Assembly (NCBI GenBank): GCA_965208905.1
Contig: OZ242365.1
Coordinates: forward strand, 672,001-736,000
Direction: 5' to 3'
Origin: Nitrosopumilaceae archaeon
GTDB lineage: Archaea; Thermoproteota; Nitrososphaeria; Nitrososphaerales; Nitrosopumilaceae
DNA length: 64,000 bases
The notes beneath the pieces were generated by a model that saw only the letters and a program-made list of their open reading frames with translations, ran no database searches and had not been told where the DNA came from. Within the stretch, counting starts at the first letter, position 1, and the number at the start of each line of letters is the position of its first letter. The position numbers and the translations under genes are program-made. This document shows positions 2,269 through 7,206 of the stretch, piece after piece.

Positions 2269-2646
2269 ATGCCGCGCCACATCTTGGCCGTCAGCACTAA
2301 ATCATTATACATGTCAGACTCTGATTCTTTGTTTCAATAGTCACCTTTGTAGAATGCCATCTATAAGGACAACTATTCTGTGGCAGGACTGGAAAACGGC
2401 AAGTATGCAATACTTGGTTCGGGTCTGGCGCTCCATGAAGACATTGATAGAGTCACTACATTTGATGAGTTAAAGATGATCATTCAGGCCGCCTTGTCTG
2501 ATGGTACAGTTCGGGACGAACTACCGGGCCCTAGACTATACACTATACTGTCTTCAACCACTTATTCGTGCAATCTCAACAAGTCATGTTACTATACAAA
2601 AAGACGAGACATGTCACTAACAATTTTGCCAACTGGGCTGATGTAG
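2269..2646 (+). pseudogene. Possible degraded ORF with two in-frame TAG stops
   Basis: ATG 2269 is in the same frame as ORF 2380-2646, interrupted by TAG at 2338 and 2350. Confidence 0.3.
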
Positions 2647-2771: not shown

Positions 2772-3113
2772 ATGAAACGCATAGAAGCTATCGTTCAAGC
2801 GGACAAGCTGAAATCTGTTGTGGACGCACTCGAAGGAAAGGTAGGCGGATTTATAGCCTTTGATGGAAAAGGACGAGGATCCGGCGCTAGACCCACCGTT
2901 AGGATGGGAAGAGGTACAGGTACCATGAAGGCAGACTTCAATACGGTTGCCAGTATTGTATCGATAGTAGATGACTCTGATGTTAAAGCTGTCACAGATG
3001 CAATAACTGAGGCTGCTTATACTGGAACCGCTGGTGACGGAATAATTGTAATCTCTACCATAGACGATGTTGCGAATATCACTACTAAGAAAAAGGGATC
3101 AGAGGCCCTTTAA
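2772..3113 (+). CDS. glnB: Nitrogen regulatory protein P-II (GlnB/GlnK family)
   Basis: MKRIEAIV start, GKGRG, AYTGTAGDGIIVIS and C-terminal GSEAL; 113 aa. Confidence 0.93.
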   Translation: MKRIEAIVQADKLKSVVDALEGKVGGFIAFDGKGRGSGARPTVRMGRGTGTMKADFNTVASIVSIVDDSDVKAVTDAITEAAYTGTAGDGIIVISTIDDVANITTKKKGSEAL

Positions 3114-3270
3114 CTCCTTTTTATTAAATAGAATCGCCCCACGTATGAGGGGGGCACTACTGATCTTGGTATCTGCGCATTAGTAGATAAGCCACTATTC
3201 CAGAAACAATTGCGCCCATGGCTATCATATCGTACATACATACAGTATGATGGCACCCATTAAAAATTAT

Positions 3271-3294
3271 GGGAATTATAGTGATGGGTAGGAT
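3271..3294 (+). repeat. IS1595 terminal inverted repeat (cargo-side end)
   Basis: Reverse complement of 5378-5401 with one mismatch. Confidence 0.92.
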
Positions 3295-3691
3295 CATTTA
3301 ATAATCCCAAACGGTGTAGTATAGCAAATTCAGATCCAAGGAGGTGAACGGGTAAACAGGATGCAAAAAATGCGGTTTCATATGCAAGTGTGCGATTTAA
3401 TCATCAACCGAGGTGTCATGAATGTAAAAGGGAATGAAACCAATAGAATACACGATAGACACAGCCCGTGTATTTGAGGACATGCAGAATCAAACAGATG
3501 ACATCCACACAGCCCTACAAGTTTCATGACACCTCACCTTCCTTTATATTGTATATAGTGGTTTTGATCATTTAGATACCGTAGCATTATATGTCGCGTA
3601 TCGTATTGTACAATGCCATGCGGGTTTAGTAGAAACTTTCACTCGTAAATTCATTAACGATATCCGTATCATGGCCTCTGCGGGTATCATA

Positions 3692-3973
3692 TCATGTCTT
3701 ATAACGCATGTCCAAAACTCGCACTATACTATGTGTTATGTGCAGCATGGTTATCTTGCGTGGAGGCCGTGACTCAAATAAGGCCCTCTCAGACTCTAAA
3801 TCTTTGACTTTCTGCAACAATTCCTTCAAGTATGACATGGTTATATCGTCTGCCCGTAATTGATGTGTGTCTTTTGCCTTGTTGTATGTTGTCCCTCTGA
3901 ATGATGTTACTGTTTCTATGTTGTCCCTGGGATATTCTGGCAAATTCTCTAGTATGTCCCGTTCCAATGTCAT
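3692..3973 (-). CDS. Hypothetical passenger protein (93 aa) inside IS1595
   Basis: ATG-start ORF with TTTATA box (plus 3997-4002) 24-29 nt upstream; amphipathic segment YLKELLQKVKDLESE. Confidence 0.55.
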   Translation of the reverse strand: MTLERDILENLPEYPRDNIETVTSFRGTTYNKAKDTHQLRADDITMSYLKELLQKVKDLESERALFESRPPRKITMLHITHSIVRVLDMRYKT

Positions 3974-4322
3974 AATGCGAGTTGTATGACAGTCTGTATA
4001 AACTCTATCAATGTTTATAATACAACCACAAGGGCAATGATATGTCGCACGGGTTCATTAATGCTCGTTAAATCGTTGCTGCCGTCCATATTGCGACCTC
4101 TGTGGACGGCAAAATCTAAGATATAGCATTACATTTTTGTGATAAAGTTGGTTTACTATGTATTAACTTTGTACAACTAAATGCAAGTAAACATAGAGTT
4201 ATAACCATAATCTAAGTATATACAAACAATGGTATAACAGTTCCATGTTACTGCTTCAGATACCATGAGCGGTAACTGTCGCTGCCCCTGTAGATTGTGA
4301 GCTAGGGGCAGCATCATCCTTT

Positions 4323-4405
4323 GTCGTGGTGGTCTAGTCTGGTAGGGCGGCGGTCTCAAAAATCGCTCATTCACAATGGCGCAGGTTCAAATCCTGTCCA
4401 CGGCG
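4323..4405 (+). tRNA. Class II (long variable arm) tRNA, anticodon CAA (Leu) on a Ser-like body
   Basis: Acceptor GTCGTGG/CCACGGC plus G73; D-arm GTCT-AGTCTGGTA-GGGC; anticodon arm GCGGT-CTCAAAA-ATCGC (CAA at 4357-4359); variable arm T-CATT-CAC-AATG-G-C; T-arm GCAGG-TTCAAAT-CCTGT. Confidence 0.88.
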
Positions 4406-4415
4406 CACTAAACAT

Positions 4416-5366
4416 CTAACTTATCAGTTGCTCATATGTCAACCGCTTGCCAATCATGCCCCTTGCCAAACTTATCATCATGTCTTCAGTGTCTAGATTT
4501 CGTATGTTTAAACGGCCAGCAAACTCATTGACATACCTGTGCAGGTGCTTTGCCGACACATGATGGAATGTACCGTAATAGCCACGCTTTAACAAAGCCC
4601 AAAAGGATTCTATGCCGTTAGTGTGCGCCATGCCGTTGACATATTGACTTACCGAATGATTAACCACTTCGTGATTTGGTAAACTCTTGTATGCTCTATG
4701 CTCATCCGTATAATGGGTACTGCCCGACTTGACATTGTCTTTAATAAATTTGCCAAGTCGAGCAGATGTGGTCTCATTTACGGGTTCGGCTCTTATATCA
4801 CCTGTCTTTCTATCTTTGATACCTACAACTGCGGTTTTGTTTGCACCGCCTTGACTGTGGGGTTGTTTCTTTGTACTGTGTTTGTTCTTTTCCTTGCCAC
4901 CGATATAGGTCTCATCTATTTCGACTGGACCTTCCAGTTTGTCAATACCTGCCAATGTTTGCCATGATTCACGCAAACGCTGAACCATGAACCATGCTGA
5001 ACTTTGGGATATGCCTAAGTCTCTGTGTAGTTTCATTGATGATATACCCTTGACATTAGTCATAAACTGGTATGTTGCGATTGCCCAATGCTGGTATGAT
5101 ATTTTGGATTGTTGCATTACAGTGCCGACTTTGACTGAAAAATACGTTTTGCACTTACTACAATAGTATGGCATCTTTGGATGTTTACATTCTATGGTAT
5201 CATCATGTTTGCAGTTGGGACATTTACGGCCATCTCTCCATATGTGGCTTTCAAACCACTTCATGGATGTATGATTGTCTGGAAACATCTTTAGTAAATC
5301 TATTAGTGTGATTCCTTCCCTGTGTGATTTGCCTGGTGCTTGTTGCATGTAATACCTTAGATTCAT
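4416..5366 (-). CDS. IS1595-family DDE transposase
   Basis: N-terminal Zn ribbon (CPNC...CSKC), KGISS HTH region, EIDETYIGG, TDE, TNGIESFW, YVNEF. True start may be ATG 5348, given the TATA-like sequence at 5373-5378. Confidence 0.95.
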   Translation of the reverse strand: MNLRYYMQQAPGKSHREGITLIDLLKMFPDNHTSMKWFESHIWRDGRKCPNCKHDDTIECKHPKMPYYCSKCKTYFSVKVGTVMQQSKISYQHWAIATYQFMTNVKGISSMKLHRDLGISQSSAWFMVQRLRESWQTLAGIDKLEGPVEIDETYIGGKEKNKHSTKKQPHSQGGANKTAVVGIKDRKTGDIRAEPVNETTSARLGKFIKDNVKSGSTHYTDEHRAYKSLPNHEVVNHSVSQYVNGMAHTNGIESFWALLKRGYYGTFHHVSAKHLHRYVNEFAGRLNIRNLDTEDMMISLARGMIGKRLTYEQLIS

Positions 5367-5377
5367 AGGGCATATAA

Positions 5378-5401
5378 ATCCTATCCATCACTATAATTCC
5401 C
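5378..5401 (-). repeat. IS1595 terminal inverted repeat (transposase-proximal end)
   Basis: Partner of 3271-3294, followed by the AAAATTAT duplication. Confidence 0.92.
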
Positions 5402-5457
5402 AAAATTATCTATGTGTTGTATGCATGAAAAAAAGGTAGAACAGTGAGTTTGAGTAT

Positions 5458-5697
5458 CTATTCTTGTCCTTCTATGCCCATAAGGGTCAATGTAGAACGA
5501 ATTTTTGGTATCTTTCTTACTTTCCATGTTATGGTCTCTCGGAGCTTTTCAACCTGTTCTGACTCTACTTTGGCTAGTATGTCATAAGCACCAAATGTAC
5601 CGTGTACCTCAACTACGTCATTCATCTGTTTAAGTTCTGCAATTACGGACTCTTCTGACCCCAACTCACAATTTATCAATACATATGCAGTTGCCAT
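5458..5697 (-). CDS. Stand-alone Lrp/AsnC ligand-binding domain protein
   Basis: AYVLINCELG...EVHGTFGAYDILAKVE...IRSTLTL; 79 aa. Confidence 0.9.
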   Translation of the reverse strand: MATAYVLINCELGSEESVIAELKQMNDVVEVHGTFGAYDILAKVESEQVEKLRETITWKVRKIPKIRSTLTLMGIEGQE

Positions 5698-6177: not shown

Positions 6178-6747
6178 CTACTCTTTTTGGTCGTATAACA
6201 TAAGGCCCTTCTCTTCTAGAATGGCATGTAGGTTGTGAACTGATCTATATACGTCACTCTCTTTTTTTGCACCCGTGCAGACTAGCTTGCCCGAGGCAAA
6301 GAGCAGTATTACCGTCTTTGGGTCTAACATCCTGTGTATCAACCCTGGAAATTGTTCTGGTTCGTACATACTTCGAGGTAACATTCGGGCGGACTTTTCC
6401 AAATGTATACGTCCACCCAAATTTATGGCGGCGACCATATTTTGTACAGTCACCACCGCATCTTTTTTTATATCTATGCCGCCTTTTCGGAGCCTCTGCA
6501 CTACTGTTCGTACAGCCTCTAAGGACATCTCTTCTGACTTTGCACCAGTACAGACCATCTTACCAGTACGAAATATCAGCGTAGCCGTCCGAGGATTATG
6601 CAGTCTAAAGACAAGTCCAGGAAACTGTTCTGGATTGTACTCTGTCTGAGGAAACTTGTCGTTTATCTCATTGAGATCTATACTTTGATCTACTGTAGCT
6701 GATGCAACTACGTTTTCTACGCTGACGTGAGGTTTTGTCTGTGCCAT
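6178..6747 (-). CDS. tbp: TATA-box binding protein
   Basis: Two TBP repeats (ENVVAS..YNPEQFPGL..LIFRTGKMVCTGAK; YEPEQFPGL..LFASGKLVCTGAK). Start placed at MAQTKP. Confidence 0.97.
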   Translation of the reverse strand: MAQTKPHVSVENVVASATVDQSIDLNEINDKFPQTEYNPEQFPGLVFRLHNPRTATLIFRTGKMVCTGAKSEEMSLEAVRTVVQRLRKGGIDIKKDAVVTVQNMVAAINLGGRIHLEKSARMLPRSMYEPEQFPGLIHRMLDPKTVILLFASGKLVCTGAKKESDVYRSVHNLHAILEEKGLMLYDQKE

Positions 6748-7206
6748 ACCTTGTTTGTATATTAACACCATTATATAGACAAATCTATTATTGCAGAGAT
6801 TTTCTCAAAGTTTATCGTAAAACTGGTTTTTTATATGACTTTATACGCAATTGGTCCCCCAAAGATCTAGACGTTGTGCATAGATGTAGGCTATGTACAT
6901 ATCTAGATTGGTCGTAAGGTCTACAAACCTACTGTGTATCATTTTGCACCATTCAAGAGGAACAACTGGACTGACAGACTATCTCTTGATGTGTAGATGG
7001 TTTATGGGCGGAACCTATAATCATACCGTTGTGGACGCACTCTTCTACACCGCCACTCTGACCATTATAGTAAACAAGGCGACCCCTTCACATATACAAT
7101 AAATGATATCACACACCACACTGCATCCATTAAATTCTGCATTGTATCATTTGAGGCAGCAACTAAGACTTCTATTACAAAACCACATAATCACAGATGT
7201 CTTTCA

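What the first reader, a model, noticed from the sequence alone, without database searches (positions are those of the whole stretch)
3263..5409. IS1595 element carrying a tRNA gene as cargo
Seen: 24-bp TIRs (23/24) and an exact 8-bp AAAATTAT duplication delimit a 2131-bp unit. The transposase fills under half of it. The rest holds a full cloverleaf tRNA ending 10 nt from the convergent transposase stop, an orphan ORF and several hairpins. Established: IS1595 members make 8-bp TSDs and some carry protein passenger genes. Inference: the tRNA lies well inside the TIRs, so it is cargo rather than an insertion target. I am not aware of a described tRNA-transporting IS1595 in archaea. This is the best candidate in the window for an undescribed system: a transposon that delivers a translation component.
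Basis: partly seen in the sequence, partly recalled or inferred. Interest (0 to 1): 0.92.

Follow-up and report, generated by a model that had tools for sequence, protein, structure and literature searches.

The report
Jumping gene carrying an odd tRNA
A small transposon in a sponge-symbiont-type archaeon has recently copied itself together with a spare transfer RNA whose body looks like a serine tRNA but whose anticodon reads a leucine codon, so a mobile element may be spreading a tRNA that can mistranslate the genetic code.

Summary
Window 3271-5401 is a 2131-bp IS1595-family element with 24-bp TIRs (23/24) and an exact 8-bp TSD. A second copy in the same genome differs at 1 of 2131 bases and has unrelated flanks and its own TSD. 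Both sites are empty in a sister genome, each with a single copy of the 8-mer. So the tRNA (4323-4405) moved inside the element.

The tRNA is not an ordinary tRNA-Leu. The host has all five canonical Leu tRNAs, all with A73. The cargo tRNA has G73, A37, a Ser-like D-arm and a different long extra arm, and its nearest host tRNA is tRNA-Ser(CGA). It belongs to a family of at least 28 supernumerary class II tRNAs in 10 Nitrosopumilaceae genomes, mostly Cenarchaeum. The family carries 12 anticodons (Leu, Phe, Ile, Lys, Gly, Pro, Arg), shows strong cloverleaf covariation and often lies beside transposases. A diverged IS1595 lineage in another genome also holds such a tRNA (GAA) inside its TIR.

The best reading is a transposon carrying an anticodon-shifted, probably Ser-accepting tRNA that reads UUG. 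Charging and expression are untested. I found no description of this in print.

The parts
3263..3270 (.). Left target-site duplication AAAATTAT
   Evidence: Exact repeat of 5402-5409. The 8-mer is present once at the empty site in G005.
3271..3294 (+). Left terminal inverted repeat (GGGAATTATAGTGATGGGTAGGAT)
   Evidence: 23/24 match to the right TIR here and 24/24 in copy 2. The GGGAATTAT terminus is shared by related IS copies in G000, G001, G003, G004, G005, G006 and G008.
3295..3691 (.). Cargo, non-coding stretch of unknown role, with a perfect 13-bp inverted repeat (3410-3422 / 3523-3535)
   Evidence: No ORF of 60 aa or more. No Rfam match at E<=1. Inverted repeat. A short stretch (window ~3634-3697) resembles DNA beside the host ORF93 paralogue.
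3692..3973 (-). ORF93, an orphan passenger gene of 93 aa on the same strand as the transposase
   Evidence: No Pfam family. Only 3 hits in 5.8 billion proteins: itself, an 89% variant and a 67% host paralogue. tblastn puts the paralogue at G000:C1:2111561-2111833 at 66% identity. 6 of its 11 Leu codons are TTG, against 2 of 10 in the paralogue. The AlphaFold model has low confidence, pLDDT 52.
4081..4127 (+). Distal hairpin (GCCGTCCA, 14-nt loop, TGGACGGC) followed by AAAATCTAAGATATAGC. It matches the hairpin plus TATA-like motif found upstream of other members of the tRNA family, so it is a candidate promoter or operator.
   Evidence: Sequence read and compared by eye with the upstream regions printed. 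The promoter role is an inference.
4281..4312 (+). Proximal GC-rich hairpin (9-bp stem, 14-nt loop) ending 10 nt before the tRNA
   Evidence: The same kind of hairpin ends 8-40 nt upstream of 15 of 24 odd tRNAs, 0 of 42 other G000 tRNAs and 2 of 12 canonical Ser tRNAs. It is homologous to the hairpin upstream of G001_TAA3.
4323..4405 (+). Class II tRNA with anticodon CAA, discriminator G73 (4405), A37, a 7/5 cloverleaf, a short extra arm, no intron and no encoded CCA
   Evidence: ARAGORN. Rfam tRNA 47.9 bits. Nearest host tRNA is tRNA-Ser(CGA) at 63/84. Family covariation. Own model R1 gives 84.8 bits against 83.1 for host Ser(GCT).
4416..5366 (-). IS1595-family transposase (316 aa). The real start is probably Met7 at 5348, giving MQQAPGK as in relatives.
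   Evidence: PF12762 at 2.2e-40. PF12760 Zn ribbon at 20.1 bits, below its cut-off of 25.4. C49, C52, C69 and C72 are invariant in 7 relatives. DNA homology to related IS copies starts at window ~4432. The Met7 start is an inference from the ORF starts printed.
5378..5401 (-). Right terminal inverted repeat. The TTTATAT at 5372-5378 is a possible TATA box for the transposase.
   Evidence: The single difference between the two copies lies here, at element position 2114. The TATA role is an inference.
5402..5409 (.). Right target-site duplication AAAATTAT

Best explanation
This is a passenger-carrying IS1595-family transposon (TIR, DDE transposase, cargo, TIR) that recently transposed as one 2131-bp unit into two AT-rich intergenic sites of a Cenarchaeum-genus genome. 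Its cargo is an orphan gene (ORF93) plus a complete tRNA module: a distal hairpin/TATA-like motif, a leader hairpin and the tRNA. The tRNA is a structurally intact, supernumerary class II tRNA. It belongs to a family associated with mobile elements that keeps a Ser-type identity set (G73, long extra arm, Ser-like D-arm, G1-C72; A37 in this tRNA) while its anticodon changes freely. I commit to this mechanism: the host's single, anticodon-blind SerRS charges it with serine, and it reads UUG, a leucine codon. The transposon therefore spreads a Leu-to-Ser mistranslating tRNA, probably kept at low or conditional expression by its unusual hairpin-bearing upstream region. Shown: mobility of the whole unit, cargo status, the tRNA fold and covariation, redundancy with the canonical Leu tRNAs, the Ser-like features, and family membership. 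Inferred: serylation, decoding on the ribosome, the expression level and any regulatory role of the hairpins.
For: Mobility and cargo. There are two copies with 1 difference in 2131 bases, different flanks and their own 8-bp TSDs. Both sites are empty in G005, each with one copy of the 8-mer. In the contig graph the element has about twice the depth of its flanks and its right end branches to the flank of copy 2. The transposase matches the IS1595 DDE domain at 2.2e-40. Relatives share the GGGAATTAT termini and 8-bp TSDs, and they come as plain ISs of 1.17-1.36 kb and as cargo-bearing elements of 2.0-3.2 kb.

The tRNA is real. Rfam gives 47.9 bits, within the host class II range. In an alignment of 9 family members 96.8% of cells are paired, 19 of 24 pairs change on both sides and 0 of 500 shuffles reach that.

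It is not a Leu-type tRNA. The five canonical Leu tRNAs of G000 all have A73, and so do all 25 Leu-type tRNAs found in five other genomes of the genus. The four G000 Leu anticodon loops I read all have G37. All share one conserved extra arm. The cargo tRNA has G73, A37 and a different extra arm.

It is Ser-like. Its best host match is tRNA-Ser(CGA), with a nearly identical anticodon arm. All host Ser tRNAs have G73. Model R1 scores it like canonical Ser. In the tree the canonical Leu clade (100/100) contains none of the 22 odd tRNAs, and ours sits in a 12-member clade whose anticodons are CAA, TAA, TAT, CTT and ACC.

Identity rules come from the review PMC9976931, passages read. Archaeal Leu identity needs A73 plus specific extra-arm bases. 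A73-to-G73 changes switch Leu to Ser identity. G73 is the strong element for bacterial-type and archaeal SerRS. Each of the 10 genomes of the genus has one standard SerRS.

Links to mobile elements elsewhere. In G001 a tRNA(GAA) lies between the TIR and the transposase in two diverged IS1595 copies. Other family members lie beside TnpB-type, DDE_Tnp_4 and IS6-type transposases and toxin-antitoxin-like genes. Modules of about 330-340 bp occur at different loci.
Against: No aminoacylation or expression data exist. No RNA run holds the element, and that says nothing either way. The minor Ser element G30-C40 is G30-U40 in this tRNA (sequence). UUG is a common codon here, 20.4% of Leu codons and 16.4 per 1000 codons, so an abundant Ser-tRNA(CAA) should be harmful. 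The linked ORF93 uses TTG for 6 of its 11 Leu codons, including conserved Leu positions where the host paralogue uses other Leu codons (2 of 10 TTG). That fits Leu decoding better than Ser decoding, but the sample is small. The tRNA lacks the TATA-like box that host tRNAs have about 25-35 nt upstream, so it may be poorly expressed or silent. Masked-anticodon identity to the nearest Ser (71%) against the nearest Leu (61%) is not decisive, and canonical Ser and Leu themselves reach 72%. The deep nodes of the tRNA tree are weak (61/80). The identity rules come from Haloferax, Methanosarcina, E. coli and human systems, not from Nitrosopumilaceae.
Confidence: 0.45

Rival explanations
1. The cargo is a working extra tRNA-Leu(CAA). 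LeuRS charges it despite G73, and it simply raises UUG-decoding capacity, in the way phage or plasmid tRNAs supply codons for the element's own genes.
For: The anticodon CAA is a Leu anticodon. The linked ORF93 has 6 of 11 Leu codons as TTG, against 20.4% genome-wide and 2 of 10 in its host paralogue. Most anticodons in the family read Leu codons (CAA, TAA, GAG, CAG, AAG). One member, G009_AAG, has both A73 and G37.
Against: G73, A37 and an extra arm unlike the conserved Leu arm. A73 is the key Leu determinant in every system reviewed, including an archaeon. Close relatives of this tRNA in the same clade carry Ile, Lys and Gly anticodons, and these cannot all be cognate. The host already has a canonical Leu(CAA) and Leu(UAA). 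The transposase itself is not TTG-rich, with 5 of 19 Leu codons.
Confidence: 0.18
2. The RNA keeps a tRNA shape but has a non-translational job. It could be a processing signal or insulator at the cargo/transposase junction, a decoy for tRNA-targeting nucleases or integrases, a regulatory RNA, or part of a small mobile module whose upstream hairpin is the functional site.
For: [quoted passage not shown] A conserved GC-rich hairpin accompanies 15 of 24 family members, against 0 of 42 other host tRNAs. The tRNA sits 10 nt from the transposase stop here, and 37 nt upstream of the transposase start in the G001 copies. That suggests a role tied to the element's own transcripts. Modules of 330-340 bp recur at different loci.
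Against: All four stems, the extra arm, G1-C72 and G73 are conserved with compensatory changes. The anticodon loops are regular 7-nt loops with T33 in 22 of the sequences typed. That is more than a processing signal would need. No nuclease or integrase partner was identified.
Confidence: 0.25
3. The tRNA is a dying hitch-hiker: a tRNA-Ser(CGA)-like gene captured with neighbouring DNA, inactivated by a G35A anticodon change and by promoter loss, and not yet decayed because the element is young.
For: CAA is one base away from CGA, and the anticodon arm is nearly identical to that of host Ser(CGA). There is no TATA-like box at the usual distance. The two copies are almost identical, so selection within this genome cannot be read.
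Against: The closest relative, G001_TAA3, is 77% identical and keeps every stem through compensatory changes. Family-wide covariation is strong. Twelve different non-Ser anticodons on intact bodies are hard to explain as independent accidents. The leader hairpin and about 120 nt upstream are also conserved with G001_TAA3.
Confidence: 0.1
4. The IS merely inserted next to a resident chromosomal tRNA, so the tRNA is a target and not cargo.
For: In G310 a partial second IS copy starts its homology 3 nt after the tRNA(CAG) 3' end, so there the tRNA may lie outside the IS. In G001 locus L048 a tRNA-Val lies 49 bp outside the TIR.
Against: For this element the tRNA lies more than 1 kb inside the left TIR. 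It is present in both copies, and both sites are empty in G005, where no tRNA sits between the flanks.
Confidence: 0.01

Closest known systems
IS1595-family insertion sequences, including members with passenger genes (Siguier, Gagnevin and Chandler 2009; I saw only the title in a reference list, and recall the content. Family features are taken from passages of PMC8101967.)
   Same: DDE_Tnp_IS1595 domain, N-terminal Cys4 zinc ribbon, a single transposase gene, TIRs beginning GG, 8-bp TSDs, and passengers placed between the transposase and one TIR. Five sister elements here carry a DNA methyltransferase-like passenger ORF.
   Different: The passenger is an RNA gene (a tRNA module) plus an orphan ORF. 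I found no report of a tRNA passenger in an IS. Searches found none (0 papers for four phrases), and the Thaumarchaeota mobilome paper PMC6563490 has 0 text hits for 'IS1595' or 'carry tRNA'.
Bacterial allo-tRNAs (Mukai et al., PMC5389517; passages read)
   Same: They have a long extra arm and G73/U73, which suggest Ser identity, together with very diverse non-Ser anticodons (including Leu, Ile, Lys and Arg). They are often found beside toxin-antitoxin or transposon genes, and some are active in translation while others are not.
   Different: Allo-tRNAs are bacterial and are defined by 8/4 or 9/3 acceptor/T-stem geometry. The family here is archaeal with a canonical 7/5 cloverleaf. Here one member is shown to move inside a defined IS.
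Nematode nev-tRNAs (Hamashima et al.; PMC3333845 and PMC4300185 seen as abstract starts in the listing; passages of the review PMC4033280 read)
   Same: They are class II tRNAs whose anticodons are those of other amino acids (Gly, Ile). The charging enzyme follows the body and not the anticodon. They are weakly expressed and supernumerary.
   Different: nev-tRNAs are eukaryotic, Leu-charged, not reported on transposons, and listed as nematode-only in the 2014 review table. Here the discriminator is G73 (Ser type) and the context is mobile DNA.
Ser-tRNA(CAG) of CUG-clade yeasts, and competing Ser and Leu tRNAs in Ascoidea (PMC6041473; abstract start seen in the listing, the rest recalled)
   Same: A Ser-type tRNA body carries a Leu anticodon, so a Leu codon is read as Ser or ambiguously.
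   Different: Those tRNAs are fixed chromosomal genes that underlie a lineage-wide reassignment. Here the tRNA is mobile, present in one of two sister genomes, and coexists with a complete canonical Leu set.
tRNA genes and tRNA arrays carried by phages and plasmids (for example mycobacterial tRNA array units, PMC12803027; abstract start only)
   Same: A mobile element carries translation RNAs that are redundant with the host's set.
   Different: Those are large replicons carrying canonical tRNAs. Here the carrier is a 2.1-kb IS and the tRNA's identity set and anticodon do not match.

Membership tests
IS1595 family | C-terminal DDE_Tnp_IS1595 catalytic domain | tested here: met
   PF12762 at E 2.2e-40, 138.6 bits, profile positions 1-153 of 153. 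The individual catalytic residues were not mapped.
IS1595 family | N-terminal zinc-finger (Zn_Tnp_IS1595), present in all groups except IS1016 | tested here: inconclusive
   PF12760 gives 20.1 bits, below the curated cut-off of 25.4. However, C49, C52, C69 and C72 are invariant in the alignment of 7 relatives.
IS1595 family | 8-bp target-site duplication | tested here: met
   AAAATTAT for copy 1 and AAAAAAAT for copy 2. Each 8-mer occurs once at the empty site in G005. Most related elements also have exact 8-bp TSDs.
IS1595 family | Terminal inverted repeats beginning GG, and a single transposase gene | tested here: met
   24-bp TIRs beginning GGGAATTAT, matching 23/24 and 24/24. There is one transposase ORF. 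The extra ORF93 and the tRNA are passengers.
tRNA (Rfam RF00005) | Score above gathering threshold, with a cloverleaf supported by covariation | tested here: met
   47.9 bits against 29. Family alignment: 96.8% paired, 19 of 24 pairs compensatory, 0 of 500 shuffles as high.
tRNA (functional adaptor) | Expressed, CCA-ended, aminoacylated and used on ribosomes | not testable with these tools
   No RNA run is listed for this element. No biochemical data exist.
Archaeal tRNA-Leu | Discriminator A73 | tested here: not met
   G at window 4405. All 5 canonical Leu tRNAs of G000 and all 25 in five other genomes of the genus have A73. The rule is taken from PMC9976931.
Archaeal tRNA-Leu | Leu-type long extra arm (sequence-specific in archaea) and G37 | tested here: not met
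   Host Leu tRNAs share the extra arm T-CT(C/T)T(T/C)AGG(A/G)GTTC and G37. The cargo tRNA has TCATTCACAATGGC and A37.
Archaeal tRNA-Leu | Leu anticodon | tested here: met
   CAA. The review says the anticodon is not crucial for Leu identity in E. coli and lists A73 and the extra arm, not the anticodon, for Haloferax.
tRNA-Ser (bacterial-type / archaeal SerRS substrate) | G73 discriminator and a long extra arm | tested here: met
   G73 and a 4-bp extra-arm stem with a 3-nt loop. 21 of 22 family members have G73. All host Ser tRNAs have G73.
tRNA-Ser (bacterial-type / archaeal SerRS substrate) | G30-C40 pair (weaker determinant) | tested here: not met
   G30-U40 in this tRNA, against G30-C40 in host Ser(CGA) (sequences).
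tRNA-Ser (isoacceptor in the usual sense) | Ser anticodon (NGA or GCU) | tested here: not met
   The anticodon is CAA, so it is not a normal Ser isoacceptor even if SerRS charges it.
allo-tRNA | 12-bp acceptor branch in 8/4 or 9/3 configuration | tested here: not met
   7-bp acceptor and 5-bp T stem in this tRNA and in the 9 aligned members. G396_GAG is irregular and could be read as 8/4, but it was left out of the model.
nev-tRNA | Class II tRNA whose anticodon is for neither Leu nor Ser; nematode-specific; Leu-charged | tested here: not met
   This tRNA has a Leu anticodon on a Ser-type body. Family members do carry Ile, Lys, Gly, Pro, Arg and Phe anticodons, but they are archaeal and have G73. 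Charging could not be tested.

The most novel reading that the evidence does not exclude
Mobile elements of sponge-associated ammonia-oxidising archaea carry and exchange a toolkit of anticodon-shifted, Ser-accepting class II tRNAs. There are at least 12 anticodons, each with its own hairpin-controlled promoter module. When switched on, they deliberately mistranslate chosen host codons. That would be a transposon-borne system for conditional proteome recoding, and it could act as an addiction device, a stress response, or a defence or counter-defence device. This IS1595 element would be the first case in which such a tRNA is caught in the act of transposing.
Probability: 0.3. Interest if true: 0.95.

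Novelty: new variant of a known kind. Interest (0 to 1): 0.85.

Why it matters
Insertion sequences are known to carry protein passengers, and I found no report of one carrying a tRNA. This one demonstrably moved its tRNA twice. The tRNA also pairs a Ser-type identity set with a Leu anticodon, and it belongs to an undescribed archaeal family that parallels the bacterial allo-tRNAs and the nematode nev-tRNAs. If these tRNAs are charged, mobile DNA can spread genetic-code ambiguity horizontally, in archaea, in a symbiont setting where the same IS lineage also occurs in many bacterial phyla. This makes natural, transferable mistranslation directly testable. There is a defined 83-nt RNA, a single SerRS, a sister genome that lacks the element, and a predicted peptide signature (Ser at UUG-encoded Leu positions).

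Tried and rejected
1. Sole source of tRNA-Leu(CAA)? ARAGORN without introns suggested this, but I rejected it. An intron-containing canonical Leu(CAA) lies at C1:1161672-1161770.

2. Are the odd TAA tRNAs the genus's real Leu(UAA)? Rejected. G000 has a canonical two-intron Leu(UAA) near C1:2088745-2088870. Each of G001, G005, G006, G008 and G009 has exactly five Leu-type tRNAs, all with A73. ARAGORN typed 15 as GAG, CAG or TAG and one (G005) as CAA with an intron. The other 9 contain introns and were mistyped or untyped; I assigned them to CAA or UAA only because their acceptor 3' strands match the G000 genes.

3. A dedicated extra SerRS? Not found with TIGR00414. There is one hit above the cut-off in each of 10 of 10 genomes. 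LeuRS was not searched.

4. Expression. No RNA holder is listed, which says nothing about expression.

5. Population polymorphism. The contigs of 4 runs from one sample show no empty-site joint. Contigs drop rare variants, so this is not evidence that none exists.

6. Close relatives of the IS in metagenome contigs. The best hit is only 56% identical, and 0 of 80 loci have a tRNA within 600 nt. In the species-level genome scan, 80 loci gave 7 ARAGORN calls. Two of these are implausible 'intron' calls of 980 and 308 nt. Only the already known G310 and G001-Val cases lie within 150 nt.

7. ORF93 structure. pLDDT is 52 and pTM 0.29 from a 3-sequence alignment, so I ran no fold search.

8. IS ends not found. 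No TIR pair was found around the G310 element, and the far ends of the two G001 tRNA(GAA) copies were not found. For G001, 'inside the IS' therefore rests on one end only.

9. The 327-341-bp tRNA modules show no TIR or TSD that I could see, so how they move is unknown.

10. Masked-anticodon identity and the tree do not place the family firmly with Ser. Deep nodes have 61/80 support and the long-branch warning applied. Only exclusion from the Leu clade is solid.

11. The genus survey with model R1 listed 150 of 400 matches. G004:C3:581796-581874 (62 bits) was not typed. In G003, G004, G005 and G007 only canonical Ser tRNAs were seen among the hits typed.

13. Supplementary files of papers were not consulted. 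The supplementary tables of PMC6563490, which list IS families, could bear on whether this IS lineage was catalogued.

14. Genome G121 was flagged as unpublished.

Full report
OBSERVATION. Window 3271-3294 and 5378-5401 are 24-bp inverted repeats that match at 23 of 24 positions. AAAATTAT flanks them at 3263-3270 and 5402-5409, and the unit is 2131 bp. The only long ORF is 4416-5366 on the minus strand (316 aa). It matches Pfam DDE_Tnp_IS1595 over the whole profile at E 2.2e-40, and it has a weak zinc-ribbon match of 20.1 bits against a cut-off of 25.4. Four cysteines are invariant among seven relatives. ARAGORN finds a single tRNA in the 64-kb window, at 4323-4406 on the plus strand with anticodon CAA. 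Rfam's tRNA model gives 47.9 bits, E 1.6e-8. The host's own class II tRNAs score 39.9-58.8 bits on that model. ORF93 (3692-3973, minus strand) has no Pfam family.

THE UNIT MOVED WITH THE tRNA INSIDE IT. The genome is one contig of 2.21 Mb and 45.6% G+C. It holds a second full copy at C1:1211856-1213986. The two copies differ at one base, element position 2114, which is the TIR mismatch; copy 2 has perfect 24/24 TIRs. Their flanks are unrelated, and copy 2 has its own 8-bp duplication, AAAAAAAT. Sister genome G005 is 95-98% identical in the flanks and has both sites empty. At the first site the two flank alignments overlap on exactly 8 bp, a single AAAATTAT between the P-II and Lrp/AsnC genes. 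At the second site a single AAAAAAAT joins the two flanks. Contigs from four runs of one sample show the element's internal unitig at about twice the depth of the flanks. They also show the right end branching into the flank of copy 2. The tRNA is therefore cargo and not a target.

THE IS LINEAGE. I scanned 98 loci around transposase relatives from the genus and family and paired their ends. A subgroup shares the terminus GGGAATTAT and 8-bp TSDs. The distant members (55-58% aa identity; G001, G004, G006) are plain ISs of 1.17-1.36 kb. The closer ones (64-79%) are elements of 2.0-3.2 kb with cargo downstream of the transposase. In five of them (two in G000 itself, plus G003, G005 and G008) the cargo is a DNA methyltransferase-like ORF with a DPPFNS motif. 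I read that motif by eye and did not run Pfam on it. In some of the five the ORF has an HNH-like tail. One G005 element of 2046 bp has unrelated cargo of unknown function. DNA homology between our element and its relatives starts at window ~4432, 16 nt inside the 3' end of the transposase gene, and resumes only at the far TIR. The cargo module has therefore been swapped. Record titles identify the same-genus genome G008 as a Cenarchaeum sp. MAG and the others as Nitrosopumilaceae. Transposases at 50-55% identity occur in MAGs of Chloroflexota, Dehalococcoidia, Poribacteria, Latescibacterota, Rhodothermales, Nitrospirales and others. That these are sponge-associated communities is my recollection plus what taxon names such as Poribacteria and Poriferisodalis suggest.

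tRNA cargo is rare in this lineage. Among the 80 best genome loci, only two known cases have a tRNA within 150 nt. Among 80 metagenome loci, none has one within 600 nt. The exception is G001. There, two diverged copies (78% identical over about 730 bp) have the order TIR (GGGAATTATATACAT), 54 nt, tRNA(GAA), 37 nt, transposase start. Their mutual homology begins exactly at the TIR. Their far ends have decayed, so 'inside' rests on one end only. In G310 a tRNA(CAG) lies about 90 nt upstream of the transposase. A second partial IS copy there begins its homology 3 nt after the tRNA, so that tRNA may be outside the element.

WHAT KIND OF tRNA. The host does not need it. G000 has canonical Leu(CAG), Leu(UAG) and Leu(GAG), an intron-containing Leu(CAA), and a two-intron Leu(UAA) that ARAGORN missed. 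All have A73 and one conserved extra arm, and the four anticodon loops I read have G37. Five other genomes of the genus each have exactly five such Leu-type tRNAs, all 25 with A73, and the reversed-pattern control found none.

The cargo tRNA has G73, A37, a D-arm like that of the host Ser tRNAs, and a different, shorter extra arm. Its best match among all host tRNAs is tRNA-Ser(CGA), at 63 of 84 positions. The anticodon arm is nearly identical, with CGA changed to CAA and C40 changed to U. Both have G1-C72, U2-G71 and C3-G70, and the other stems differ by changes that keep the pairing. Every host Ser tRNA has G73.

The review PMC9976931 (passages) states three things. Archaeal Leu identity rests on A73 and specific extra-arm bases. 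A73-to-G73 changes switch Leu to Ser identity. G73, followed by G30-C40, is the strong element for bacterial-type and archaeal SerRS. Each of the ten genomes of the genus has one standard SerRS and no paralogue above the cut-off.

A FAMILY OF SUCH tRNAs. I searched the family with the tRNA sequence and the genus with a covariance model built from nine members, then typed the hits. This showed at least 28 genes in 10 genomes (G000, G001, G002, G006, G008 and G009 of the genus; G023, G310, G396 and G398 of two other genera). They are class II tRNAs whose anticodons are CAA, TAA, GAG, CAG, AAG, GAA, TAT, GAT, CTT, ACC, CGG and CCT, plus one with an irregular anticodon loop. Of the 22 trimmed and checked, all pair 7/7 in the acceptor stem, and 21 have G73; the exception, G009_AAG, has A73 and G37.

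On the nine-member alignment 96.8% of cells are paired. Nineteen of 24 pairs change on both sides. No shuffle out of 500 and no slid register comes close. G1-C72 and G73 are invariant. The model scores the cargo tRNA at 84.8 bits, host Ser(GCT) at 83.1, Ser(UGA) at 79.2, Ser(CGA) at 71.6 and Leu(UAG) at 69.3. In a maximum-likelihood tree with anticodons masked, the canonical Leu tRNAs form a 100/100 clade that contains none of the 22. Our tRNA falls in a 12-member clade (85/87) with anticodons CAA, TAA, TAT, CTT and ACC. The deeper nodes are weak. A body that stays constant while the anticodon changes is what one expects if the charging enzyme ignores the anticodon.

CONTEXT OF THE FAMILY. Pfam shows TnpB-type (Cas12f1-like TNB) genes beside the G396 and G310 tRNAs. 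Two DDE_Tnp_4 transposases lie beside a G009 tRNA(TAA). IS240/IS6 fragments lie beside the G023 and G398 tRNAs. Nucleotidyltransferase and HicB-like genes lie beside the G396 tRNA. Two TAA copies at different loci of G006 share only 341 bp: 192 nt upstream, the tRNA, and 58 nt downstream. The ACC copies of G001 and G006 share about 327 bp with unrelated flanks.

A GC-rich hairpin ends 8-40 nt upstream of 15 of 24 family members. The same is true of 0 of 42 other G000 tRNAs and 2 of 12 canonical Ser tRNAs of G001, G004, G006 and G009. In most members a TATA-like box follows the hairpin about 25-30 nt before the tRNA (by eye). Our tRNA has the hairpin at 4281-4312, ending 10 nt before the tRNA, with no TATA-like box in between. 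Nearly every host tRNA has one at about -25 to -35. A second copy of the hairpin-plus-TATA motif lies at 4081-4127. The closest relative of our tRNA, G001_TAA3, is 77% identical over 102 nt and has the same tight hairpin arrangement. The homology runs about 120 nt upstream. The IS therefore captured a whole tRNA module.

HOW IT MOST LIKELY WORKS. Shown: the DDE transposase element moves the whole 2131 bp. The cargo tRNA is intact, supernumerary, Ser-like in its identity positions and a member of a selected family. Inferred: SerRS charges it, it reads UUG, and Ser goes in at Leu codons. The hairpin-bearing upstream region would keep it weakly or conditionally expressed.

The evidence against is real. 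UUG makes up 20.4% of Leu codons and 16.4 per 1000 codons, so strong expression should be harmful. G30-C40 is weakened to G-U. ORF93, the linked passenger, has TTG at 6 of its 11 Leu codons, including conserved Leu positions. Its chromosomal paralogue has 2 of 10, and the transposase has 5 of 19. That fits Leu decoding better. My hand calculation of the binomial against the genome frequency gives about 0.013, for a single comparison chosen after the fact. No expression data could be obtained.

I put the full statement at 0.45, Leu supply at 0.18, a non-translational tRNA-shaped RNA at 0.25, a young pseudogene at 0.10, and target-not-cargo at 0.01.

COMPARISON WITH WHAT IS KNOWN. The element meets the tested IS1595 criteria (PMC8101967). 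Only the zinc-ribbon profile score falls short. The closest RNA analogues are the bacterial allo-tRNAs: long arm, G73/U73, many anticodons, neighbours that are toxin-antitoxin or transposon genes, and 8/4 or 9/3 geometry (PMC5389517; review PMC7609411). The other analogue is the nematode nev-tRNAs (PMC4033280). Our family fails the defining geometry of the first and the taxon and discriminator of the second, so it works like them without being a member of either.

I found no report of an IS or transposon with a tRNA passenger, or of such tRNAs in archaea. The Thaumarchaeota mobilome paper has no text hit for IS1595 or 'carry tRNA'. Supplements were closed, and subscription journals are largely missing from the library, so 'not in print' is limited to those searches.

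VERDICT. The cargo turns out to be stranger than they proposed. Novelty: a new variant of known kinds (a passenger-carrying IS; anticodon-shifted class II tRNAs). Interest 0.85.

Noticed in passing
G000:C1:1770047-1772736 (L096 2548-5237) and G000:C1:1043578-1046414 (L097 679-3515): Two more cargo-bearing IS1595 elements in the same genome, 2690 and 2837 bp, with exact 8-bp TSDs. Each carries a DNA methyltransferase-like ORF (DPPFNS motif read by eye) in place of a tRNA. The 2837-bp element has the same TSD sequence, AAAATTAT, as the element studied here.
   Followed up: partly
G000:C1:79490-79851 (L005/L098): A degraded third copy of a closely related IS. It keeps the transposase N-terminal part (90% aa identity over residues 3-109, with a stop) and a TIR with 3 mismatches. 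The C-terminal part and the cargo are missing.
   Followed up: no
L140/L160 (G006) and L148/L181 (G001); L170 (G006) and L176 (G001): tRNA(TAA) and tRNA(ACC) of the odd family sit in modules of 341 bp and about 327 bp that recur at different loci. I could see no TIR or TSD, so how they spread is unexplained. Just upstream of the TAA tRNA there is a copy of its own 3' acceptor strand (CCTGCGCC).
   Followed up: partly
L169 (G001:C1:42800-48300), 2493-2581 minus strand and 2870-2958 plus strand: Two class II, G73 tRNAs with the Ile anticodon GAT face away from each other about 290 nt apart.
   Followed up: no
L266 (Alphaproteobacteria MAG, genome contigs), 2925-3012: A bacterial 88-nt class II-like tRNA with the Gly anticodon ACC, A73 and an encoded CCA lies 489 nt upstream of an IS1595 transposase that is 53% identical to ours. 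It may be a bacterial counterpart of the archaeal family.
   Followed up: no
Loci L209-L267: The same IS1595 lineage, at 49-57% aa identity, is present, often in several copies, in MAGs of many bacterial phyla whose names suggest sponge-associated communities. This points to cross-domain exchange of the IS within one habitat.
   Followed up: no
G000:C1:~2088745-2088870: The host's canonical tRNA-Leu(UAA) carries two introns and is missed by ARAGORN even in intron mode. Its orthologues in other genomes are mistyped as Phe(AAA) or left uncalled.
   Followed up: partly
G000:C1:1664528-1664679: Two adjacent low-scoring tRNA-like genes (38.7 and 37.9 bits on Rfam tRNA). ARAGORN types them as Ser(ACT) and as Arg(TCG) or Pro(CGG). 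Their T-loops (TTCGATTCC) are unlike those of the host's other tRNAs, so they may be foreign.
   Followed up: no
G000:C1:2111561-2112046 (L128 5553-5846): A chromosomal paralogue of ORF93 (66% aa identity) sits between large ORFs that look secreted. About 100 nt of its upstream DNA resembles two separate places in the IS cargo (window ~3634-3697 and ~4016-4112).
   Followed up: partly
window 2772-3113 and 5458-5697: The element lies between a P-II family gene (PF00543) and a small Lrp/AsnC ligand-binding-domain gene (PF01037). A TATA-binding protein gene follows at 6178-6771. Whether the insertion alters their expression was not examined.
   Followed up: no
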